Source of the DNA: a virus
Taxonomy: Duplodnaviria > Heunggongvirae > Uroviricota > Caudoviricetes
Length of the DNA stretch: 43,929 nt
IMG/VR virus record: IMGVR_UViG_2654588006_000005
Coordinates: 1 to 43,929 of that record
Direction: 5' to 3' (one strand)
In this document: positions 4,054 to 43,929 of the stretch, piece by piece
How positions within the stretch are numbered: position 1 is the stretch's first letter
Layout: the number at the start of each line of letters is the position of its first letter
Position numbers and translations under genes: made by a program
Notes under the pieces: generated by a model
Seen by the model: only the letters and a program-made list of their open reading frames with translations
Databases searched by the model: none
What the model was told of the DNA's origin: nothing

Positions 4054-4653
4054 TCAGAACTTATAACCGACACCCACGATGAAACCGTCAGTGCGCCAGT
4101 CGCCACTGCCGGAGCCTTCATAAGCAATATCAATGGCCACGGATTCGGTCGGGTTAAACTGCACGCCAGCTCCCCACGCCAGAGACGTGTTGCTGTGGCG
4201 ACCGTCATCACTTCCGGTCAGCACGTCGTGCGTTTTCCCCTTGTTGTCAGTTACGCGAAGATAATCCCCGGAGAAAGTCGACACACGGCTGTAAACTACA
4301 CCCGCCATCGCATACGCGCTGAACCATTCATTCACGCGCACAGACGGCCCCGCCATTACGCTGAACCAGCGGTTACGAACGGAATCTTCATGCCAGCGGG
4401 TATCGCTGTAACGGGTCAGCTGGCGATTCTTGTCTCCTGCATAGCTGAATGACGTCACCATTCCCAGAGTGTCCGTAAACTCATAACGGTATTTCACGTT
4501 AATCCCGTTCAGATCATCGCTGCCGGAAACGTTCGTCGAGGCATGAAGATAGCCCGCGCTCAGCGTGGACTGATGTTCAGACGCCCATGCAGGCGCACCG
4601 GATACGGCCAGACAGATGGCTGCGGACAAAATGGCGGCATAAAGTTTACGCAT
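4054..4653 (-). CDS. lom: outer-membrane protein Lom (Ail/Lom family, 199 aa)
   Basis: Signal peptide MRKLYAAILSAAICLAVSGAPAWA, beta-barrel-like sequence ending ...GVGYKF, syntenic between J and stf as in lambda. Confidence 0.85.
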   Translation of the reverse strand: MRKLYAAILSAAICLAVSGAPAWASEHQSTLSAGYLHASTNVSGSDDLNGINVKYRYEFTDTLGMVTSFSYAGDKNRQLTRYSDTRWHEDSVRNRWFSVMAGPSVRVNEWFSAYAMAGVVYSRVSTFSGDYLRVTDNKGKTHDVLTGSDDGRHSNTSLAWGAGVQFNPTESVAIDIAYEGSGSGDWRTDGFIVGVGYKF

Positions 4654-25290: not shown

Positions 25291-25584
25291 ATGAAAAAAA
25301 TGTTGTTTTCTGCCGCTCTGGCAATGCTTATTACAGGATGTGCTCAACAGACGTTTACTGTTGGAAACAAACCGACAGCAGTAACACCAAAGGAAACCAT
25401 CACCCATCATTTCTTCGTTTCGGGAATTGGGCAGAAGAAAACTGTCGATGCAGCAAAAATTTGTGGTGGTGCAGAAAATGTGGTTAAAACAGAAACCCAG
25501 CAAACATTCGTAAATGGATTGCTCGGTTTCATCACTTTTGGCATTTATACTCCGCTGGAAGCGCGGGTGTATTGCTCAAAATAA
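25291..25584 (+). CDS. bor: Bor/Iss-family lipoprotein (97 aa)
   Basis: MKKMLFSAALAMLITGCAQQTFTV...ITHHFFVSGIGQKKTVDAAKICGGAENVVKTETQQTFVNG... near-identical to lambda Bor as recalled; same position between Rz and cos on the opposite strand. Confidence 0.85.
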   Translation: MKKMLFSAALAMLITGCAQQTFTVGNKPTAVTPKETITHHFFVSGIGQKKTVDAAKICGGAENVVKTETQQTFVNGLLGFITFGIYTPLEARVYCSK

Positions 25585-35689: not shown

Positions 35690-36028
35690 CTATTTCCCTG
35701 AATTTACGACGAAACTGTTCGAGCGGGCTGAAGCATTCATGCTCATAGCCTTCGCGGAGGTAGATAACCCGTTGTGTTTCCGGTTCCCAACGAATGACTC
35801 TGACGGGCACTCCGTAGTGATCTTTGAACCAGCGGTTAACTTGTTGCAAAGGACTGTCTCCTTCTGCCGGTTGAAATCACCCACAGCCCACTCTGCAAAG
35901 CTGTGGGTTACAATTTCCCTGTCACCTGGTACATTCACCGCATAGCAATACTCCACCTTCGCTTTTCCACCCGGTACAGGAAGCGCAATCAGTTGCGAGC
36001 GACGGTAGTGTGTTGTTAAACTGTTCAT
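35690..36028 (-). CDS. hypothetical protein (112 aa)
   Basis: GGAGA RBS; ATGA start/stop overlap with the upstream YdaT-like gene; no family recognized. Confidence 0.45.
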
Positions 36029-36609
36029 GCGTTAGTTTCTCCACAACCAGAAGCAATCGACGCCACGACGCCCGGAGCTGCACACTCGCGGGCGTTACTC
36101 TTTTCCGGCGCACAAAAAACACGAAATAACAGTGTTAAATGCTCCTGCCACTTCGCCATTACTTGGTAGCTGTTCTCTTCGATTTGCTCACGCTCAGCCT
36201 GGTCAATAACTCCATCAGCAGTTGCCTTGCGTAAGTACTGGGAATGCTTGCCAATCCATTCTATTGACTCCATCAGCCGCTGATTAATGTCACCATTGTC
36301 AATGTCATCAATGTTCACCAGCGGCACAAACACCCCATTACTACGACGCGCTATCGCATCCGTTACATGCCTGGTACCACTGGCATCCTGTAAAACCATG
36401 GCCCACTCAAGTGGAAAAATTTGATCCCCACCGCTACGCAGTCTGTTATGCAATTGATCTTTCGCTGGGGTGATATCATCAGATTTATACAAACCAAGAA
36501 TTTCCGCTGCTTCCTCATAGCCATGAGGTAAATCAGCAATCGTTCTTCGTATTGCTGCCACCAGCCATGCTGGTTGCTTATCAACTTTCCATTCAGGTTC
36601 TTTACCCAC
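36025..36609 (-). CDS. YdaT-like protein (194 aa), cII-position regulator (tentative)
   Basis: Immediately downstream of the Cro/YdaS-like gene, as ydaS-ydaT are arranged in the K-12 Rac prophage; family call from memory. Confidence 0.5.
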
Positions 36610-36637
36610 GGTTCATTCCTCGTTTCTGTGGTTACGT

Positions 36638-36901
36638 TTACGCAGTTGAACCGCTAACTTTTGAATAGCACTCAGGTAATCCATCATTTGGATTGGGGTA
36701 AATATCAGGACGCAGTTCATGAGGGGTCACGGACCAGTTTCCCAACTCACAAAGTTGTAAAACCCGTTCTGACGGGACTTGATTGTTAATTACCCAATTG
36801 GCGACGGATTGAGTGGACTTAAAACCAAAGCGACGGGCTACTTCAGATAAAGACTTTCCCGCAGCCTTTACTGCTTTCTCTGTGTAGTTTTGAGATGACA
36901 T
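36638..36901 (-). CDS. Cro-like HTH regulator (YdaS family, 87 aa)
   Basis: Divergent from the repressor gene; GKSLSEVARRFGFKSTQSVANWVINNQVP helix-turn-helix; AGGAGA RBS. Confidence 0.7.
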   Translation of the reverse strand: MSSQNYTEKAVKAAGKSLSEVARRFGFKSTQSVANWVINNQVPSERVLQLCELGNWSVTPHELRPDIYPNPNDGLPECYSKVSGSTA

Positions 36902-37007
36902 ACCTTTCTCCTCTGAAATTCAGAGGGATGATGCTACTTAAAATAGCAAATTGCAACTACTTAAAATAGAAATGACTAGCGCGTGTGATGTGAGTAATCT
37001 TCTACCT
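36902..37007. promoter_or_regulatory. immunity control region (oR/pR/pRM equivalent)
   Basis: Divergent intergenic region with two direct copies of CTACTTAAAATAG, a 15-bp palindrome CTCTGAAATTCAGAG over the cro-like RBS, and a 19-bp palindrome CTTCTACCTATGGTAGAAG at the repressor start. Confidence 0.55.
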
Positions 37008-37712
37008 ATGGTAGAAGAACAGAAGTATCCAGATTTCGCCAAGAGACTAAACGAATTGATGACAATCAAAGGAATCTCTGTCACTCAACTCAAAAGTCTT
37101 GTGGGCGTTACATATGAAATGGCTCGTCGATACACAATCGGCGCAGCGAAGCCACGTGTCTCTGTCATGAGTAAACTTGCGTTGGCTCTTGGAGTATCAG
37201 CTTCATATCTAGAATATGGTGTTGGAGATAGAGAGGAATGTAAGGAAATGGCAAGCATCCCCAATCCAACAAAGCCCGATGTATACAGGATAGAAGTTTT
37301 GGATCTTAGCGTTAGCGCAGGACCTGGGACCTATATGCTTTCAGACTATGTTGATGTGCTCTACGCCATTGAGTTCACAACTGAACATGCCCGTTCTCTT
37401 TTCGGAAACCGTTCTCAGAATGATATAAAAGTTATGACGGTAAATGGAGATAGTATGTCCCCAACTCTTGTTTCCGGGGATCGATTGTTTGTCGACATTT
37501 CCGTTCGCCACTTCCAGACTGATGGAGTTTACTCTTTCGTTTACGGTAAGACTTTCCATGTTAAACGTCTACAAATGCAAGGCAACAAACTAGCTGTTCT
37601 TTCGGATAACCCCGCCTATGAGAAATGGTACATTGATGAGAAGTCGCAAGATCAGCTTTATGTTATGGGTAAGGCACTGATTCATGAGTCGATTAAATAT
37701 AATCGACTTTAA
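36972..37712 (+). CDS. CI-like prophage repressor, HTH (XRE) + S24 LexA-like peptidase (about 246 aa)
   Basis: HTH segment ISVTQLKSLVGVTYEMARRYTIG; C-terminal S24 motifs (VNGDSMSPT Ser, downstream KR Lys). Start ambiguous: 36972 (MTSACDV) or 37008 (MVEEQK); probably leaderless. Confidence 0.8.
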   Translation: MTSACDVSNLLPMVEEQKYPDFAKRLNELMTIKGISVTQLKSLVGVTYEMARRYTIGAAKPRVSVMSKLALALGVSASYLEYGVGDREECKEMASIPNPTKPDVYRIEVLDLSVSAGPGTYMLSDYVDVLYAIEFTTEHARSLFGNRSQNDIKVMTVNGDSMSPTLVSGDRLFVDISVRHFQTDGVYSFVYGKTFHVKRLQMQGNKLAVLSDNPAYEKWYIDEKSQDQLYVMGKALIHESIKYNRL

Positions 37713-37946
37713 TTAGGCATCTAGCAATCGTTAAAGCAAACGAGCACAGATGATAAAAGATAAGGATAGAAAATCTTTATACAAATTTTATTTGGCACAT
37801 TGGTCCATAAAAATGGATTAACACTGAGCTGTTACCCTAAGTAAGAAAAGATAAAGACCATATGTTATCTTTGGGTGCGTTACTAACACAAAAAAAACCA
37901 AAATAAAACATAAATAATAGACAATTCTATACAACAGGATACGATA

Positions 37947-39032
37947 ATGATTAATGAACGTACTGAAGCGACAGATGGGGTAGCAGATATGATTTCCACC
38001 AATACAAAATATTTAGTATGGAACAACAAAGGTGGTGTAGGAAAAACTTTTCTTACATATAATCTTGCCGTTGAGTTTGCTATATCTCATCCGGATCAAG
38101 ATGTTGTGGTTATTGACTCATGCCCTCAATCAAACGTTTCAGAAATTATTCTTGGTGGCAATGGTACCGGGGAAGAAAATCTAAATAAATTGCGAGACAG
38201 AAATGTTACAATCGCAGGTTATATCAAGGAGCGTTTTAGCAAATCTCCTTTGTCTCGTTTAGGAAATGAATCTTCTTACTTTGTACGAGCCCATGATGTT
38301 AATACAAAAATGCCAGAGAACTTATATATTCTTCCTGGTGATGTCGATCTTGATATCTGTTCACGCTTAATATCTCACATTGGCTCATCCCCAGTAAAAG
38401 AAGCATGGAAGAAAAGCCGATCTTTGCTGGTAGATCTAATAGCATCTTTTGAAGCCGATAAAAACATTTCTGACAGAGCAAAAACATTTTTTATTGATTG
38501 TAATCCAAGTTTTGCCAGCTACACAGAATTGGGAGTAGTCGCGGCAAATAGAATAATTATCCCTTGCACTGCCGATGCTGCATCAATTCGCGGAATAAAA
38601 AACCTTGTTAAACTTATTTATGGAGTGTCTATTGACAAGTCAGAACAAGATGAAATGTTCTTAGATTTCAACAAAGAAGCAAAGCAAAACCTTATCGAAC
38701 TACCTGAACTACACCTTTTCGTACAAAACCGCTCAAGAACTAATGAAAGTGATGCAGCAAAAGCATTCAAATCACATGCAGAAGAGATCAAAAGAATCAC
38801 GGATGACCTGTTAAATACACATCCTCATCTGTTCACAAATGTGGCTACTTTCGAGAGAGTTCAAAATGTCAAAGATGGTAATACTCTTGCAGCAATAATA
38901 AACCATGAGGGATGCCCTTTAAGTAGGCTGCAGCATAAGAGTTACACTATCTATGGTATGGCGACCCAAGCTAATAGAGCACAAATTGAAGCACTAGAAT
39001 CTGATGTTTCAACAGTAGTCAAGTGTCTGTAA
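37947..39032 (+). CDS. ParA/MinD-family P-loop ATPase (361 aa), AT-rich cargo gene at the rex-equivalent position
   Basis: Deviant Walker A WNNKGGVGKT, Walker A' VIDSCPQSN, Walker B FFIDCNPSF; low-GC gene and flanks; same strand and position (downstream of cI) as lambda rexAB. Confidence 0.75.
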   Translation: MINERTEATDGVADMISTNTKYLVWNNKGGVGKTFLTYNLAVEFAISHPDQDVVVIDSCPQSNVSEIILGGNGTGEENLNKLRDRNVTIAGYIKERFSKSPLSRLGNESSYFVRAHDVNTKMPENLYILPGDVDLDICSRLISHIGSSPVKEAWKKSRSLLVDLIASFEADKNISDRAKTFFIDCNPSFASYTELGVVAANRIIIPCTADAASIRGIKNLVKLIYGVSIDKSEQDEMFLDFNKEAKQNLIELPELHLFVQNRSRTNESDAAKAFKSHAEEIKRITDDLLNTHPHLFTNVATFERVQNVKDGNTLAAIINHEGCPLSRLQHKSYTIYGMATQANRAQIEALESDVSTVVKCL

Positions 39033-39068
39033 TACAATAACCATGATTTAGAACGAACATAATTCTCG

Positions 39069-39091
39069 CCCGACCAACCGGTCGGGTTTTA
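39069..39091 (+). terminator. intrinsic terminator after the ParA-like gene (t-imm equivalent)
   Basis: CCCGACC-AACC-GGTCGGG hairpin followed by TTTTAT, 37 nt past the stop codon. Confidence 0.5.
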
Positions 39092-39294
39092 TACTCGTAG
39101 CCTGCTTAATAACACTGTTCCTGACCCGTTGTATCCATAGTTCCCACTATTTTCCCCCAAATTATTACTATCTAATTAACCTAATAATTAAACCAAAACA
39201 AAAGACACTCGATATTTTCTATACGTAACTACGCCACATCACCCCATCTGTGAAAAACCTTTTAATTCATAACGTTATATAGAAAACTAAAAAT

Positions 39295-39376
39295 TAAATA
39301 CACGCTTCTACTTTTTGTTGTTGATTTTTGCTACTTTTAGTAGCATCATTATCTGAACAAACAACAGACTGTTGTT
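39295..39376 (+). promoter_or_regulatory. candidate oL/pL region with operator-like repeats and a 17-bp perfect palindrome
   Basis: CTACTTTTTG and CTACTTTTAGTAG resemble the CTACTTAAAATAG repeats at oR; AACAACAGACTGTTGTT palindrome at 39360-39376. Confidence 0.35.
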
Positions 39377-39781
39377 AACGAAAGGTTGGTTGTAACACGG
39401 CGTATGGCACATGCGTCGTTAGCGGTCTGGGGACGTTAAAGGGGACAATCCACTCCTTGCTCGGGCAAACAAACCAGGTAGCCGGAATGTGCAAGTCAAT
39501 GAGGATGCTGATAAGACGCCTAACCAGCGTGGCGATTCGGTTTGACGCCTGGGAAGAGACCAGGGTGCAACGATGAGGGCATTTATGGAACCGCGACAAA
39601 GTGTGGTGCCGTAACTGGCTAAGTGCTCTCAGCGTTGTGGTGAATGCGCAGGCTGATGCGCGAAAGACATTGCAGCTATTGCGGAAAAGAGCTGTTCGGC
39701 GGGGCAATTAAACGCCCGTGAGAGTCTGAAATAACCGCAAGCCGGAGATCAGCACCGGTCACCACAACAGCCACTGCTTTG
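39377..39781 (+). other. ORF-free, relatively GC-rich structured early-left leader (candidate ncRNA or RNA-based antitermination element)
   Basis: Stops in all three plus-strand frames (longest ATG-initiated ORF about 29 codons); the only track ORF is a non-protein-like minus-strand ORF; ends at a strong terminator. Confidence 0.35.
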
Positions 39782-39827
39782 GCGGTACCAGTTTGTACCC
39801 TTGCTTCCGGCTGGTACCGCTCTTTTT
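39782..39827 (+). terminator. intrinsic terminator within the early-left leader (tL1-like / attenuator)
   Basis: 10-bp perfect stem GCGGTACCAG / CTGGTACCGC with 19-nt loop followed by TCTTTTT. Confidence 0.55.
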
Positions 39828-39916
39828 ACAAAACAGAGAAGAGCATCACCGGACGACGGGCTCATAACCCAATCCATCCGGGCGGCTGCCACCGCAGGTG
39901 TTCTTCTCTGTTTTGT
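39828..39916 (+). promoter_or_regulatory. long-range inverted repeat (15-bp arms, 59-nt spacer) immediately upstream of the first early-left ORF
   Basis: ACAAAACAGAGAAGA ... TCTTCTCTGTTTTGT enclosing a GC-rich segment; 30-50 nt upstream of the GAGGAG RBS of the yfdP-like ORF. Confidence 0.35.
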
Positions 39917-39964
39917 GGAGAAACTAACCGACCTTACAGGGTCGATATGATGAGGAGCAGCAAA

Positions 39965-40327
39965 ATGGCTAGCGAACGCAGTACTGATGTGCAGGCATTT
40001 ATCGGGGAGCTGGACGGCGGCGTATTTGAAACCAAAATCGGCGCAGTTCTCAGTGAAGTCGCTTCCGGTGTGATGAACACGAAAACCAAAGGTAAGGTCT
40101 CACTCAACCTGGAAATCGAACCATTTGATGAGAACCGTGTGAAAATCAAACACAAACTCTCATATGTTCGCCCGACTAACCGCGGGAAAATTTCCGAAGA
40201 AGACACCACCGAAACGCCGATGTATGTCAATCGCGGTGGTCGCCTGACTATTCTGCAGGAAGACCAGGGACAATTACTGACTCTTGCCGGTGAACCTGAC
40301 GGAAAACTCCGCGCAGCAGGTCATTAA
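39965..40327 (+). CDS. hypothetical protein, YfdP-like (120 aa)
   Basis: GAGGAG RBS before MASERSTDVQAFIGELDGG...; 120 aa and position match my recollection of the K-12 CPS-53 yfdP-yfdT cluster; the track ORF starts further upstream but that part overlaps the leader structures. Confidence 0.5.
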   Translation: MASERSTDVQAFIGELDGGVFETKIGAVLSEVASGVMNTKTKGKVSLNLEIEPFDENRVKIKHKLSYVRPTNRGKISEEDTTETPMYVNRGGRLTILQEDQGQLLTLAGEPDGKLRAAGH

Positions 40328-40392
40328 TATCGTTCTTAATTAACTGATTATTTATCTCATCACTGAATATCTTTATATAGTGAGGACTTATT

Positions 40393-41217
40393 ATGTCTCA
40401 GAACTTAGACGCAACCGCAATTAATCAAATCCATGCCCTTATTTCTGCTCAGGGTGTTAATGAAATTATCAGTAAGATTGGTGCCGATGCTGTGGCATTG
40501 CCTGAGAATTTCCGCATTCATGATCTGGAAAAATTTAATTTAAATCGCTTCCGTTTCCGTGGTGCACTTTCCACTGCCAGCATCGATGATTTTACCCGTT
40601 ATTCTAAAGATCTTGCAGATGAAGGCACCCGCTGCTTTATCGATGCCGATAATATGCGTGCCGTCAGTGTGCTTAACCTGGGTACTATTGATGAGCCAGG
40701 TCACGCAGATAACACTGCCACTCTCAAACTGAAAAAGACAGCACCGTTCTCTGCTCTGTTGTCTGTTAACGGCGAGCGTAACTCCCAGAAGTCACTGGCA
40801 GAATGGATCGAAGACTGGGCCGACTACCTTGTGGGCTTTGATGCTAATGGTGACGCCATTCAAGCAACAAAAGCGGCTGCGGCAGTCCGTAAAATCACGA
40901 TTGAAGCAAACCAGACCGCTGATTTTGAAGATAATGACTTCAGCGGCAAACGCTCCCTGATGGAGTCTGTCGAAGCGAAGACCAAAGACATTATGCCAGT
41001 GGCATTTGAATTTAAATGCGTTCCGTTTGAAGGTCTGAAAGAACGTCCGTTTAAATTACGCCTCAGCATTATCACTGGCGATCGTCCTGTACTGGTTCTG
41101 CGCATTATTCAGCTGGAAGCGGTGCAGGAAGAAATGGCTAACGAATTTCGTGATCTGCTTGTTGAGAAATTCAAAGACAGCAAAGTAGAAACCTTTATTG
41201 GTACTTTCACCGCCTGA
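40393..41217 (+). CDS. yfdQ: YfdQ-like protein (DUF2303-type, 274 aa)
   Basis: 274 aa; gene order and lengths (120/274/178/120/101 aa) match the CPS-53 yfdPQRST cluster as recalled. Confidence 0.6.
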
Positions 41218-42539: not shown

Positions 42540-42910
42540 TGGAGCCATACAGCCTCACACTCGATGAGGCCTGTCAGTTTCTTAAGATATCCAGACCAAC
42601 CGCCACCAACTGGATACGAACAGGCCGCCTACAGGCAACACGTAAAGATCCAACCAAGCCAAAATCTCCTTACCTCACAACACGGCAAGCCTGCATTGCG
42701 GCGCTTCAGTCTCCGCTGCATACTGTCCAGGTGAGCGCGGGTGATGGCATAACAGAGGAAAGAAAATGTCACTCTTCCGCAGAAATGAAATATGGTATGC
42801 CTCGTATTCGCTCCCGGGCGGGAAACGAATTAAGGAATCTCTTGGCACAAAGGACAAGCGGCAAGCTCAGGAGTTGCACGACAAGCGAAAAGCAGAACTC
42901 TGGCGAGTAG
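42539..42910 (+). CDS. xis: excisionase-like protein, P22-type (about 123 aa), overlapping int
   Basis: [38 protein letters not shown]... HTH typical of excisionases; TAATG overlap with the upstream stop; 3' end overlaps the int start by about 145 nt. Confidence 0.55.
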
Positions 42911-43929
42911 AAAAGCTAGGGGATTTACCTGATGTCACTTTTGAAGAGGCCTGCCTAAGATGGCTTGAGGAAAAAGCTGATAAAAAATCTCTCGATTCAG
43001 ATAAAAGCCGGATTGAGTTCTGGCTTGAACATTTTGAGGGTATAAGGCTTAAAGATATCTCGGAGGCAAAGATTTACTCTGCTGTAAGCAGAATGCATAA
43101 CAGAAAGACGAAAGAAATATGGAAACAGAAAGTTCAGGCCGCCATCAGGAAAGGTAAAGAACCGCCTGTTTATGAACCAAAGCCAGTATCAACTCAGACA
43201 AAGGCAAAGCATCTTGCCATGATAAAGGCCATTCTCCGTGCTGCAGAACGCGACTGGAAGTGGCTGGAAAAAGCGCCTGTCATCAAGATACCAGCGGTCA
43301 GAAACAAGCGAGTCAGATGGCTGGAAAAGGAGGAAGCAAAACGCCTTATTGATGAGTGCCCCGAACCACTGAAATCTGTCGTCAAGTTTGCGCTGGCAAC
43401 TGGTCTGAGAAAGTCGAACATCATAAATCTGGAATGGCAACAAATCGACATGCAGCGACGAGTTGCCTGGGTGAATCCAGAAGAGAGCAAATCAAACCGC
43501 GCCATTGGTGTGGCGCTGAACGATACCGCCTGTAAAGTGTTGCGTGATCAAATAGGCAAGCATCACAAATGGGTGTTTGTACATACCAAGGCGGCTAAGC
43601 GAGCAGATGGAACATCAACGCCTGCGGTCAGGAAGATGCGCATCGACAGCAAGACATCATGGCTATCAGCTTGTCGTCGTGCAGGAATTGAAGATTTCCG
43701 TTTCCATGACCTCAGACACACCTGGGCAAGCTGGCTGATCCAGTCAGGCGTCCCATTATCTGTGCTTCAGGAAATGGGCGGATGGGAGTCCATAGAAATG
43801 GTTCGTAGGTATGCTCACCTTGCGCCTAATCATTTGACAGAGCATGCAAGGAAAATAGACGACATTTTTGGTGATAATGTCCCAAATATGTCCCACTGTG
43901 GAATTATGGAGGATATAAAGAAGGCGTAA
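42766..43929 (+). CDS. int: tyrosine integrase, P22-type (387 aa)
   Basis: C-terminal catalytic region ...[47 protein letters not shown]... (R...HxxR...Y); 387 aa as P22 Int; stop codon is the last 3 bases of the window. Confidence 0.9.

What the first reader, a model, noticed from the sequence alone, without database searches (positions are those of the whole stretch)
37713..39091. ParA/MinD-like ATPase cargo gene occupying the rexAB (immunity-operon exclusion) slot
Directly downstream of the CI-like repressor, on the same strand and followed by a t-imm-like terminator, sits a 361-aa deviant-Walker-A ATPase in a low-GC segment. In lambda this position holds rexA/rexB, and it is a recurrent site for lysogen-expressed exclusion genes. 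No ParB, centromere repeat or plasmid backbone is present, so a partition role is unlikely; a single-gene ParA-like protein here is a candidate superinfection-exclusion or abortive-infection determinant that I cannot match to a named defense family.
Basis: partly seen in the sequence, partly recalled or inferred. Interest (0 to 1): 0.7.

Follow-up and report, generated by a model that had tools for sequence, protein, structure and literature searches.

The report
Prophage ParA-like anti-phage gene (GiPD474 ortholog)

Summary
A 361-aa ParA/MinD-superfamily ATPase (37947-39032, +) lies between the CI-like repressor and the OL operators, which is the lambda rexAB position. The segment is low in GC and ends in a hairpin terminator. 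No ParB, centromere or plasmid genes are present.

The window is 100% identical to a lambdoid prophage at argU in E. coli strain 789. Sibling prophages lose homology exactly at the cI stop codon and regain it at OL, so the gene sits in a 1.6-kb swappable cargo cassette.

The protein is 93% identical to the allele matched exactly by the published gipd474 knock-out and check primers (Bosma et al., AEM 2025). That single gene lowers plating of FO1, and of Alf5 and T4 by about 5 logs, and is highly expressed in lysogens. The defence reading is therefore supported, but the family is already known. Its mechanism is not.

I did not find these points in the sections of that paper I read:
- An invariant Cys replaces the catalytic switch-I Asp of Soj/ParA.
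- The Soj DNA-binding Arg is retained.
- The clade reaches nearly all bacterial phyla and some archaea, always as a solitary gene.
- A second ParA-like clade, only 23% identical, occupies the same slot in 109 E. coli genomes and in P22-like phages.

The parts
36928..36971 (.). OR-type operator block, between the divergent cro-like (36638-36901, -) and cI genes. It holds two copies of the 17-nt motif TGCTACTTAAAATAGCA and overlaps a pRM-like promoter match at 36938-36967.
   Evidence: Repeat family D1 and inverted repeat I1; promoter scan.
37008..37712 (+). CI-like repressor (HTH_3 + Peptidase_S24). The longest ORF starts at 36951; RefSeq aa starting at 37008.
37713..39305 (+). Cargo cassette. 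Homology to sibling prophages with near-identical cI stops at 37705-37715 and resumes at 39297-39307. The siblings carry unrelated cargo here.
   Evidence: blastn junctions; alternative cargo.
37713..37946 (+). AT-rich 234-nt spacer between cI and the ATPase gene. No terminator-like site was found in it. A conserved AGGAT Shine-Dalgarno lies 7 nt before the ATG. A weak promoter-like match lies at 37918-37945.
37947..39032 (+). gipd474 ortholog: a 361-aa ParA/Soj-fold ATPase. Walker A is K28GGVGK33T, switch I is D57-S-C59-P-Q, Walker B is D184, and the NRSR264TN loop is conserved.
39068..39097 (+). Intrinsic-terminator-like hairpin (GCCCGACC-AACC-GGTCGGGT) with a T-rich tail, 36 nt after the stop codon.
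39306..39349 (.). OL-type operator block, the inverted copy of the OR block. It marks the start of the leftward early (pL) operon that runs through yfdP-yfdT to int.

Best explanation
The gene is the Escherichia (clade I) ortholog of GiPD474, a single-gene anti-phage defence protein that the prophage expresses in the lysogen from its immunity region.

Shown, for the 93%-identical Salmonella allele:
- The gene alone, cloned with about 25 nt of upstream sequence, restricts FO1, and reduces plating of Alf5 and T4 by about 5 logs, in Salmonella and in E. coli K-12.
- T7, SP6, LPST153, Jbel, VpaE1 and S16 are not affected.
- It is transcribed at more than 500 TPM during exponential growth.

Shown here for this locus:
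- It is a stand-alone ParA/Soj-fold ATPase with no effector domain and no partner gene.
- It sits in a swappable cassette between cI and OL.

Inferred mechanism:
- The protein forms the ATP-sandwich dimer typical of deviant-Walker-A ATPases, since the signature Lys K28 is invariant.
- The switch-I Asp that activates the hydrolytic water in Soj is an invariant Cys here. That position is the one mutated in the hydrolysis-deficient Soj D40A/D44A proteins. The dimer is therefore predicted to be long-lived or to hydrolyse only when triggered.
- The arginine aligned with Soj R189, needed there for non-specific DNA binding, is invariant.
- I therefore propose an ATP-locked, DNA-bound (or target-bound) dimer that acts after adsorption. 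It would occupy or sequester phage DNA, or a phage replication or packaging factor that differs between closely related myoviruses. It would not act through an enzymatic toxin.
- Co-transcription with cI from pRM is likely, because no terminator lies in the spacer and the cassette brings only about 40 nt of its own upstream sequence. This was not shown.
For: Identity with the published protein:
- The paper's 40-nt knock-out homology arm and 23-nt check primer match IMG/VR loci L022-L026 exactly, at +4 and +432 of the ORF.
- That allele is 93% identical to the window protein.
- Gene length (1086 bp), GGVGKT at residues 29-34, the AAA_31/ParA fold and the position next to CII/Cro/repressor all agree with the paper.

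Phenotype and expression: PMC12724215.

Defence hotspot:
- The paper reports that remAIN occupies the same slot in Gifsy-1 of strain 14028s.
- Sibling E. coli prophages swap cargo between the cI stop codon and OL.
- In IMG/VR, 50 of 68 loci have a CI-like gene directly upstream on the same strand. These involve 14 CI clusters (<60% identity), 5 ParA clusters and 17 combinations.

Single-gene module: no conserved neighbour in 78 genomes.

Fold: AF2 pLDDT 86, pTM 0.88. Best PDB matches are pSM19035 delta, McdA, Soj and ParA, and no extra domain is present.

Asp to Cys:
- The profile aligns 'idaCPQsN' to the D44A mutant Soj (2bek, 'VDLAPQGNA') and to 8ray ('vDmAPQGNa').
- DxCPQ occurs in 201 of 223 Walker-A-containing homologs.
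- C59 aligns with BsSoj D40 and R264 with BsSoj R189.
Against: - The E. coli allele itself has not been tested. It differs at 7% of residues, clustered at the N-terminus and at 296-302, so its phage range may differ.
- No mechanism has been demonstrated in the library I searched. The paper infers a post-adsorption step only indirectly, and reports no Walker A mutant, Abi or DNA-binding data in what I read.
- A protein with no effector domain is unusual for a defence gene.
- Identity of 45-69% across phyla is unusually conservative for a defence gene.
- In non-phage genomes the neighbours are mostly housekeeping genes, with only a few defence hits. The wider clade may not be defensive everywhere.
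Only the K16/D40/R189 numbering check and the independent PDB alignment support them.
- Cys at the catalytic position might still allow hydrolysis.
Confidence: 0.8

Rival explanations
1. It is a conventional partition (ParA) ATPase that segregates the phage genome as a plasmid or after excision, perhaps with CI and its operators serving as adaptor and centromere.
For: It has the ParA/Soj fold and a deviant Walker A. PHROG and RefSeq label it ParA. It is tightly linked to a DNA-binding repressor in many phages.
Against: - The prophage is integrated at argU and has an integrase. No ParB or parS is present, and no repeats beyond the operators.
- The NCBIfam ParA_partition score is 48.9 against a cut-off of 180.
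- The catalytic Asp needed for the hydrolysis cycle is Cys.
- The gene also occurs without CI: in tail and nin-region slots, on islands, and alone between housekeeping genes.
- P1-type IncY phage-plasmids carry a homolog after kilA-repL.
- The published phenotype is phage restriction from the cloned single gene.
Confidence: 0.03
2. Its primary role is in the prophage's own lysogeny control, for example modulating repressor function, induction or host replication as Soj does with DnaA. Phage restriction would then be a side effect of expression.
For: Synteny with repressors is conserved down to 35-38% identity, including Pseudomonas phi297. Old annotations call relatives 'putative regulatory protein'. 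A second ParA-like clade shares the slot. The high sequence conservation suggests a conserved cellular target.
Against: - The gene functions outside any prophage, from a plasmid in E. coli K-12.
- Many homologs have no repressor nearby.
- The slot is interchangeable with unrelated cargo in otherwise near-identical prophages, so the gene is dispensable for lysogeny.
Confidence: 0.1
3. It is an abortive-infection switch. A phage trigger drives the ATP-bound dimer to coat the host nucleoid or block host replication or division, killing or arresting the infected cell rather than acting on the phage directly.
For: Hydrolysis-deficient ParA/Soj mutants are known to lock onto DNA (established knowledge on Soj D40A/D44A). 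The Cys substitution and the retained DNA-binding Arg fit this. The narrow specificity, in which T4 is hit but Jbel and S16 are not, fits trigger recognition.
Against: No growth-arrest or MOI-dependence data appear in what I read of the paper. The protein is expressed constitutively at high level without reported toxicity.
Confidence: 0.25

Closest known systems
GiPD474 (Gifsy-1 of S. Typhimurium 4/74; Bosma, Noireaux & Bowden, Appl Environ Microbiol 2025, PMC12724215)
   Same: It is 93% identical over the full 361 aa, with the same Walker A position and the same ParA/Soj fold. It occupies the same place, after the repressor in a lambdoid immunity region with the integrase downstream. The paper's clade I explicitly includes Escherichia.
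   Different: This is the E. coli allele, in a different prophage backbone (argU/intD, CPS-53-like early-left genes) with a different repressor. About 25 substitutions cluster at the N-terminus and at residues 296-302. The phenotype of this allele is untested.
Lambda RexA/RexB (and other immunity-region cargo such as remAIN of Gifsy-1 14028s)
   Same: Same genomic logic: lysogen-expressed cargo between cI and OL that excludes other phages, and the cargo is swappable.
   Different: No sequence or fold relationship was detected: Pfam reports only ParA-type families. It is a single soluble ATPase, not a two-component membrane or sensor system.
Soj/ParA, McdA and pSM19035 delta (type Ib ParA ATPases)
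   Same: Best structural matches. It shares the deviant Walker A with signature lysine, the Walker B 'DCxPS' motif, and an Arg aligned to Soj R189.
   Different: There is no ParB-like partner or centromere. The catalytic switch-I Asp is replaced by an invariant Cys. It is about 100 residues longer through insertions (about 70-125 and 225-250, plus a longer helix at 268-291). Family-specific invariant motifs are LGGNGxG and KDGNTL.
Second ParA-like clade in the same slot (E. coli ECOR29 WP_023149747.1; Salmonella phage SE1 gp23 / ST160; Pf1-prophage orf317)
   Same: About 358 aa with an AAA_31 ParA-like domain. It lies directly after CI-like repressors in 30 of 38 IMG/VR loci, and in sibling prophages of this very lineage.
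   Different: Only 23% identical to the window protein. It keeps the catalytic Asp (DLDSQ/DLDPQ). No experimental data were found. It gives a weak P-loop-only hit to PADLOC candidate PDC-M28B.

Membership tests
GiPD474 family (as defined in PMC12724215) | Sequence homology to GiPD474 at >=70% identity and >=70% coverage (the paper's own filter) | tested here: met
   The window protein is 93% identical over 354-361 aa to the S. Typhimurium member P0282 and to loci L022-L026. Those loci contain the paper's gipd474 knock-out arm and check primer as exact matches.
GiPD474 family (as defined in PMC12724215) | Walker A GGVGKT at residues 29-34 within an AAA_31 / ParA-MinD-Soj-like domain | tested here: met
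   G29-G-V-G-K-T34. AAA_31 at 2.5e-16. Foldseek top hits are delta, McdA, Soj and ParA.
GiPD474 family (as defined in PMC12724215) | A single gene in a prophage immunity region beside CII-, Cro- and repressor-type genes, with an integrase downstream | tested here: met
   CII-like 36025-36609, Cro-like 36638-36901, CI 37008-37712, integrase 42766-43929.
GiPD474 family (as defined in PMC12724215) | Confers resistance to FO1, Alf5 and T4 when expressed alone | not testable with these tools
   Published only for the Salmonella allele. The E. coli allele needs a plating assay.
Partition ParA (type I par system) | An adjacent cognate ParB / centromere-binding protein and parS repeats | tested here: not met
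   None in the annotation of the identical record. Repeats are limited to the operators plus a weak A-rich 11-mer. No conserved neighbour in 78 genomes.
Partition ParA (type I par system) | Catalytic switch-I aspartate (DxDPQ; Soj D40/D44) that supports ParB-stimulated ATP hydrolysis | tested here: not met
   Invariant D57-x-C59-P-Q. It aligns to the mutated position of Soj D44A (2bek). DxCPQ occurs in 201 of 223 homologs.
Partition ParA (type I par system) | Score above the curated NCBIfam equivalog cut-off (NF041546 ParA_partition) | tested here: not met
   48.9 bits against a cut-off of 180.
Partition ParA (type I par system) | Deviant Walker A with signature lysine (KGGxGK[ST]) | tested here: met
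   N-N-K28-G-G-V-G-K33-T, invariant across the family.
Defence families in PADLOC-DB v2.0.0 | A significant match to any model | tested here: not met
   Only Drt5 at E=0.0071, 13.6 bits, over a non-ATPase stretch.
STAND/Avs-type defence NTPases (the analogy drawn in the paper's discussion) | A STAND NTPase core with a C-terminal sensor and an N-terminal effector domain | tested here: not met
   All sequence and fold matches are to ParA/MinD/Get3/NifH-type ATPases. The model is a single domain with no added module.

The most novel reading that the evidence does not exclude
GiPD474-type proteins would be the enterobacterial tip of a pan-prokaryotic clade of solitary ParA-like ATPases. The clade gave at least 567 species-level hits, from Proteobacteria to Planctomycetes, Firmicutes, Cyanobacteria and some archaea. 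Its hallmark is a Cys in place of the catalytic switch-I Asp. These proteins would act as naturally hydrolysis-impaired, DNA-bound ATP switches that block phages without any enzymatic effector. A second, Asp-retaining ParA-like clade shares the same cI-proximal slot (109 E. coli genomes, P22-like SE1/ST160, Pf1-type prophage). Together the two would make 'ParA-type positioning ATPases turned into immunity-region defence genes' a general and so far unrecognised class.
Probability: 0.3. Interest if true: 0.6.

Novelty: already known. Interest (0 to 1): 0.35.

Why it matters
For this locus the main result is an annotation. 'ParA family protein' in 71 complete E. coli genomes, and in many Klebsiella, Yersinia and Pantoea prophages, should read 'GiPD474-type anti-phage protein'. 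This matters for predicting phage-therapy failure with T4-like and Felix-O1-like phages.

The mechanism is still open, and the sequence features found here give direct handles on it. These are the Cys at the catalytic Asp position, the retained Soj-type DNA-binding Arg, the absence of an effector or partner, the very wide phyletic spread, and a second ParA-like clade in the same slot. If they hold, the protein would be a defence that works by ATP-dependent occupancy rather than by a toxin. The ParA superfamily would then join the recognised defence folds.

Tried and rejected
- Rfam scan of 36000-41000 found nothing.
- PADLOC gave no usable hit on the window protein.
- Sequence search of the PDB found only generic ParA/Get3 P-loop matches and the uncharacterised 3pg5.
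- Literature searches on ParA-like, prophage, exclusion, accession numbers, phi297 and orf317 found nothing relevant. TerI and HepS were read and are unrelated. The GiPD474 paper surfaced only with the terms 'anti-phage' + 'prophage-encoded'.
- Defence-island test on 111 neighbours of distant homologs was inconclusive. They are mostly housekeeping genes and IS1595 transposases, with a few RM, PD-Lambda-1, PDC-S01 and Ppl hits.
- The alternative cargo in sibling prophages (three different ORF pairs) gave no significant Pfam or PADLOC match, so I could not show that the slot holds other known systems in E. coli.
- An alternative start at M15 was considered, because most distant homologs begin there. 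I rejected it because the M1 ATG and its Shine-Dalgarno are conserved.
- An own promoter at 37918-37945 is unconvincing. It is a 9-of-12 match that would start transcription inside the ORF.
- The 431-nt conserved leader after OL does not fold better than shuffles, z = -1.13.

Full report
**The observation.** The ORF at 37947..39032 (+) encodes 361 aa.
- Pfam assigns AAA_31 (2.5e-16) and CbiA.
- PHROGs assigns phrog_164 'ParA-like partition protein' (6.9e-47).
- All NCBIfam matches are far below their cut-offs. ParA_partition scores 48.9 bits against 180.
- PADLOC-DB v2 has no usable match.

The upstream gene, which ends at 37712 on the same strand, is an HTH_3 + Peptidase_S24 repressor. It faces cro-like and CII-like genes. 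A hairpin terminator lies at 39068-39087. GC falls to 0.34-0.39 over the segment.

A 44-nt inverted repeat (36928-36971 / 39306-39349) carries the repeated 17-nt operator-like motif. I read its two arms as OR and OL. The ATPase gene therefore lies between cI and OL, which is exactly where lambda has rexA-rexB.

The window is 100% identical to E. coli 789 NZ_CP010315.1 567373-611301. That stretch is a complete lambdoid prophage at argU. Its annotation contains no ParB or plasmid function. No centromere-like repeats are present.

**The cassette.** Prophages with the same or a 77-95% identical cro-cI region lose homology at the cI stop codon (37705-37715). They regain it at OL (39297-39307) and again from 39523 or 39780 onward. 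Between these points they carry unrelated cargo:
- three different pairs of small ORFs with no family match;
- or a different ParA-like gene.

The cassette brings only about 40 nt of conserved sequence ahead of its ATG, including the AGGAT Shine-Dalgarno. No terminator-like site lies in the 234-nt spacer. Read-through from pRM is therefore plausible but not shown.

**Relatives and context.** The exact cassette is in 71 of 5426 complete E. coli genomes.
- Klebsiella phage ST11-VIM1phi8.2 (83.5% identical) and Pseudomonas phage phi297 (38%) carry the gene directly after their cI.
- Among 68 informative IMG/VR loci, 50 have a CI-like gene immediately upstream on the same strand. These involve 14 repressor clusters (<60% identity), 5 ATPase clusters and 17 combinations.
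- The remaining loci sit in other moron slots: a tail region, the nin region next to HicAB in Acinetobacter, and after kilA-repL in IncY P1-type phage-plasmids.
- Beyond phages, the gene lies on a Campylobacter island and alone between housekeeping genes in Aggregatibacter.

The clade is large. HMMER over 1.8 billion representatives gives 66 clusters at E<=1e-30 and 334 at E<=1e-10. A pattern scan of one genome per species returned at least 567 confirmed hits, from Proteobacteria to Planctomycetota, Verrucomicrobiota, Spirochaetota, Firmicutes, Cyanobacteria, Chloroflexota and some archaea.

No neighbouring gene is conserved in 78 of these loci. The commonest neighbour is an IS1595 transposase, in 7 loci. 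The neighbours are mostly housekeeping genes with a few defence hits. The gene is thus a solitary, mobile module. A defence-island signal for the distant members is inconclusive.

**The protein.** The AF2 model is confident (pLDDT 86, pTM 0.88) and forms one domain. Foldseek against the PDB returns pSM19035 delta, McdA, Soj, ParA and then other SIMIBI ATPases, with no additional module. Invariant residues include K28 and K33 (the deviant Walker A with its signature lysine), D57, C59, D184, R264 and several family-specific motifs (LGGNGxG, PCTADAASxRG, KDGNTL).

Two features stand out.
- First, the switch-I motif is DxCPQ where Soj, MinD and McdA have DxDPQ. The family profile aligns its Cys onto the Ala of the hydrolysis-deficient T. 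thermophilus Soj D44A (2bek) and onto the equivalent Ala in 8ray. That D44A and D40A trap the ATP dimer is established knowledge (Leonard et al. 2005, recalled from memory). DxCPQ occurs in 201 of 223 homologs that contain a Walker A, down to about 30% identity.
- Second, I added B. subtilis and T. thermophilus Soj to the family alignment. In that alignment C59 pairs with D40/D44, and R264 (NRSRTN) pairs with Soj R189 (DARTN), the arginine needed for non-specific DNA binding (Hester & Lutkenhaus 2007, from memory).

**What it is.** A literature search surfaced Bosma, Noireaux & Bowden, Appl Environ Microbiol 2025 (PMC12724215). The paper reports the following.
- Gifsy-1 of S. Typhimurium 4/74 carries a single 1086-bp gene in its immunity region, named gipd474, with GGVGKT at residues 29-34 and an AAA_31/ParA-MinD-Soj-like fold.
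- Deleting it restores Felix O1 plating.
- A low-copy clone restricts FO1, and reduces plating of Alf5 by about 5.5 logs and of T4 by about 5 logs, in S. LT2 and E. coli K-12.
- T7, SP6, LPST153, Jbel, VpaE1 and S16 are unaffected.
- Transcription exceeds 500 TPM in exponential growth.
- Homologs at >=70% identity form three enterobacterial clades. Clade I contains Salmonella and Escherichia. All lie next to CII, Cro and repressor genes.
- The mechanism is stated to be unknown, 'possibly post-adsorption'.
- The three-gene remAIN system (Sargen & Helaine 2024) occupies the same slot in Gifsy-1 of strain 14028s.

I tied the window gene to this protein in two ways. The paper's 40-nt knock-out arm and 23-nt check primer (Table S2) match IMG/VR loci L022-L026 exactly, at the start of and inside the ORF. 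The protein of those loci, and an S. Typhimurium member of the same 90% cluster, are 93% identical to the window protein with every motif intact.

**Verdict on the interpretation.** The only correction is that the family now has a name. The partition reading fails on three defining features: the ParB/parS partner, the catalytic Asp and the equivalog score.

**Mechanism (inference).** The protein has no effector domain and no partner. It keeps the dimerisation lysine and a Soj-type DNA-binding arginine. It lacks the catalytic Asp. The most economical model is a long-lived ATP-bound dimer that occupies DNA or a phage factor and blocks a post-adsorption step in particular myoviruses. An abortive variant, in which the locked dimer arrests the host, is a live alternative. 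Neither has been tested.

**What is new beyond the sections of the paper I read.**
- The Asp-to-Cys hallmark.
- The retained Soj R189-equivalent arginine.
- The cassette borders.
- The spread across phyla, always as a solitary gene.
- The P1-type phage-plasmid homolog.
- A second ParA-like clade in the very same slot. It is 358 aa and only 23% identical, and it keeps the Asp as DLDSQ. It occurs in 109 E. coli genomes. It is 60% identical to P22-like SE1 gp23/ST160, where it lies after CI and a DUF3024 gene and before gene 24. It is 31% identical to Pf1-prophage orf317. It follows a CI-like gene in 30 of 38 IMG/VR loci.

**Scores.** The locus is an ordinary member of a family already shown to be a defence gene, so novelty is 'already known'. 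Interest is moderate to low (0.35). What remains interesting is the open mechanism and the leads listed above.

Noticed in passing
L163:5782-6858 (E. coli ECOR29), the slot equivalent to window 37713-39305; also L167:3501-4574 (Salmonella phage SE1 gp23) and L168:3579-4532 (Pf1 prophage orf317): A second ParA-like ATPase clade occupies the same post-cI slot in sibling prophages. It is 358 aa, 23% identical to the window protein, and keeps the catalytic Asp as DLDSQ. It is found in 109 E. coli genomes, in P22-like phages and in a Pf1-type prophage. In IMG/VR, 30 of 38 loci have a CI-like gene directly upstream. I found no experimental data. It gives a weak P-loop-only hit to PADLOC candidate PDC-M28B (5.8e-9).
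   Followed up: partly
L164:5628-6327, L165:5627-6301, L166:5658-6649 (slot equivalent to window 37713-39305): Three other sibling prophages carry different pairs of small ORFs (90-210 aa) in the cI-OL slot. None has a significant Pfam or PADLOC match. Their position makes them untested candidates for further immunity-region cargo.
   Followed up: partly
window 39350-39780: A roughly 430-nt GC-rich (0.55) stretch lies after OL and before the first pL-operon ORF. It has no + strand ORF and is 97-100% identical in many lambdoid phages (mEp460, cdtI, Stx2 phages, Ayreon). Some records annotate a minus-strand hypothetical ORF there. It has no Rfam match and folds no better than shuffles (z = -1.13). 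No N-like antiterminator gene is evident in this operon.
   Followed up: partly
L169:6001-7056 (E. coli IncY plasmid p1493-4, NZ_CP019075.1): P1-type (IncY) phage-plasmids of E. coli and E. fergusonii carry a 35%-identical DxCPQ homolog. It lies just after icd/ant, kilA and a repL-like gene, and no par genes are listed in the stretch shown. In IMG/VR the same architecture is seen in L058-L065.
   Followed up: partly
window 37885-37917: A weak A-rich 11-nt x3 tandem repeat (AACAAAAATAA, TRF score 38) lies just upstream of the ATPase gene. It is probably low-complexity sequence rather than a binding array.
   Followed up: no
window about 25291-25584 (+) and about 4054-4653 (-), mapped from the annotation of the identical record: The same prophage carries other lysogenic-conversion morons. 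One is iss (a bor-like serum-survival lipoprotein) after the lysis genes. The other is an Ail/Lom-family outer-membrane protein between the J-like tail-tip gene and the tail-fibre gene.
   Followed up: no
window protein residues 1-18, 226-252 and 296-306 (DNA about 37947-38000, 38622-38702, 38832-38864): These stretches are the least conserved parts of an otherwise very conserved protein, and they hold most of the differences from GiPD474. They may set phage specificity.
   Followed up: no
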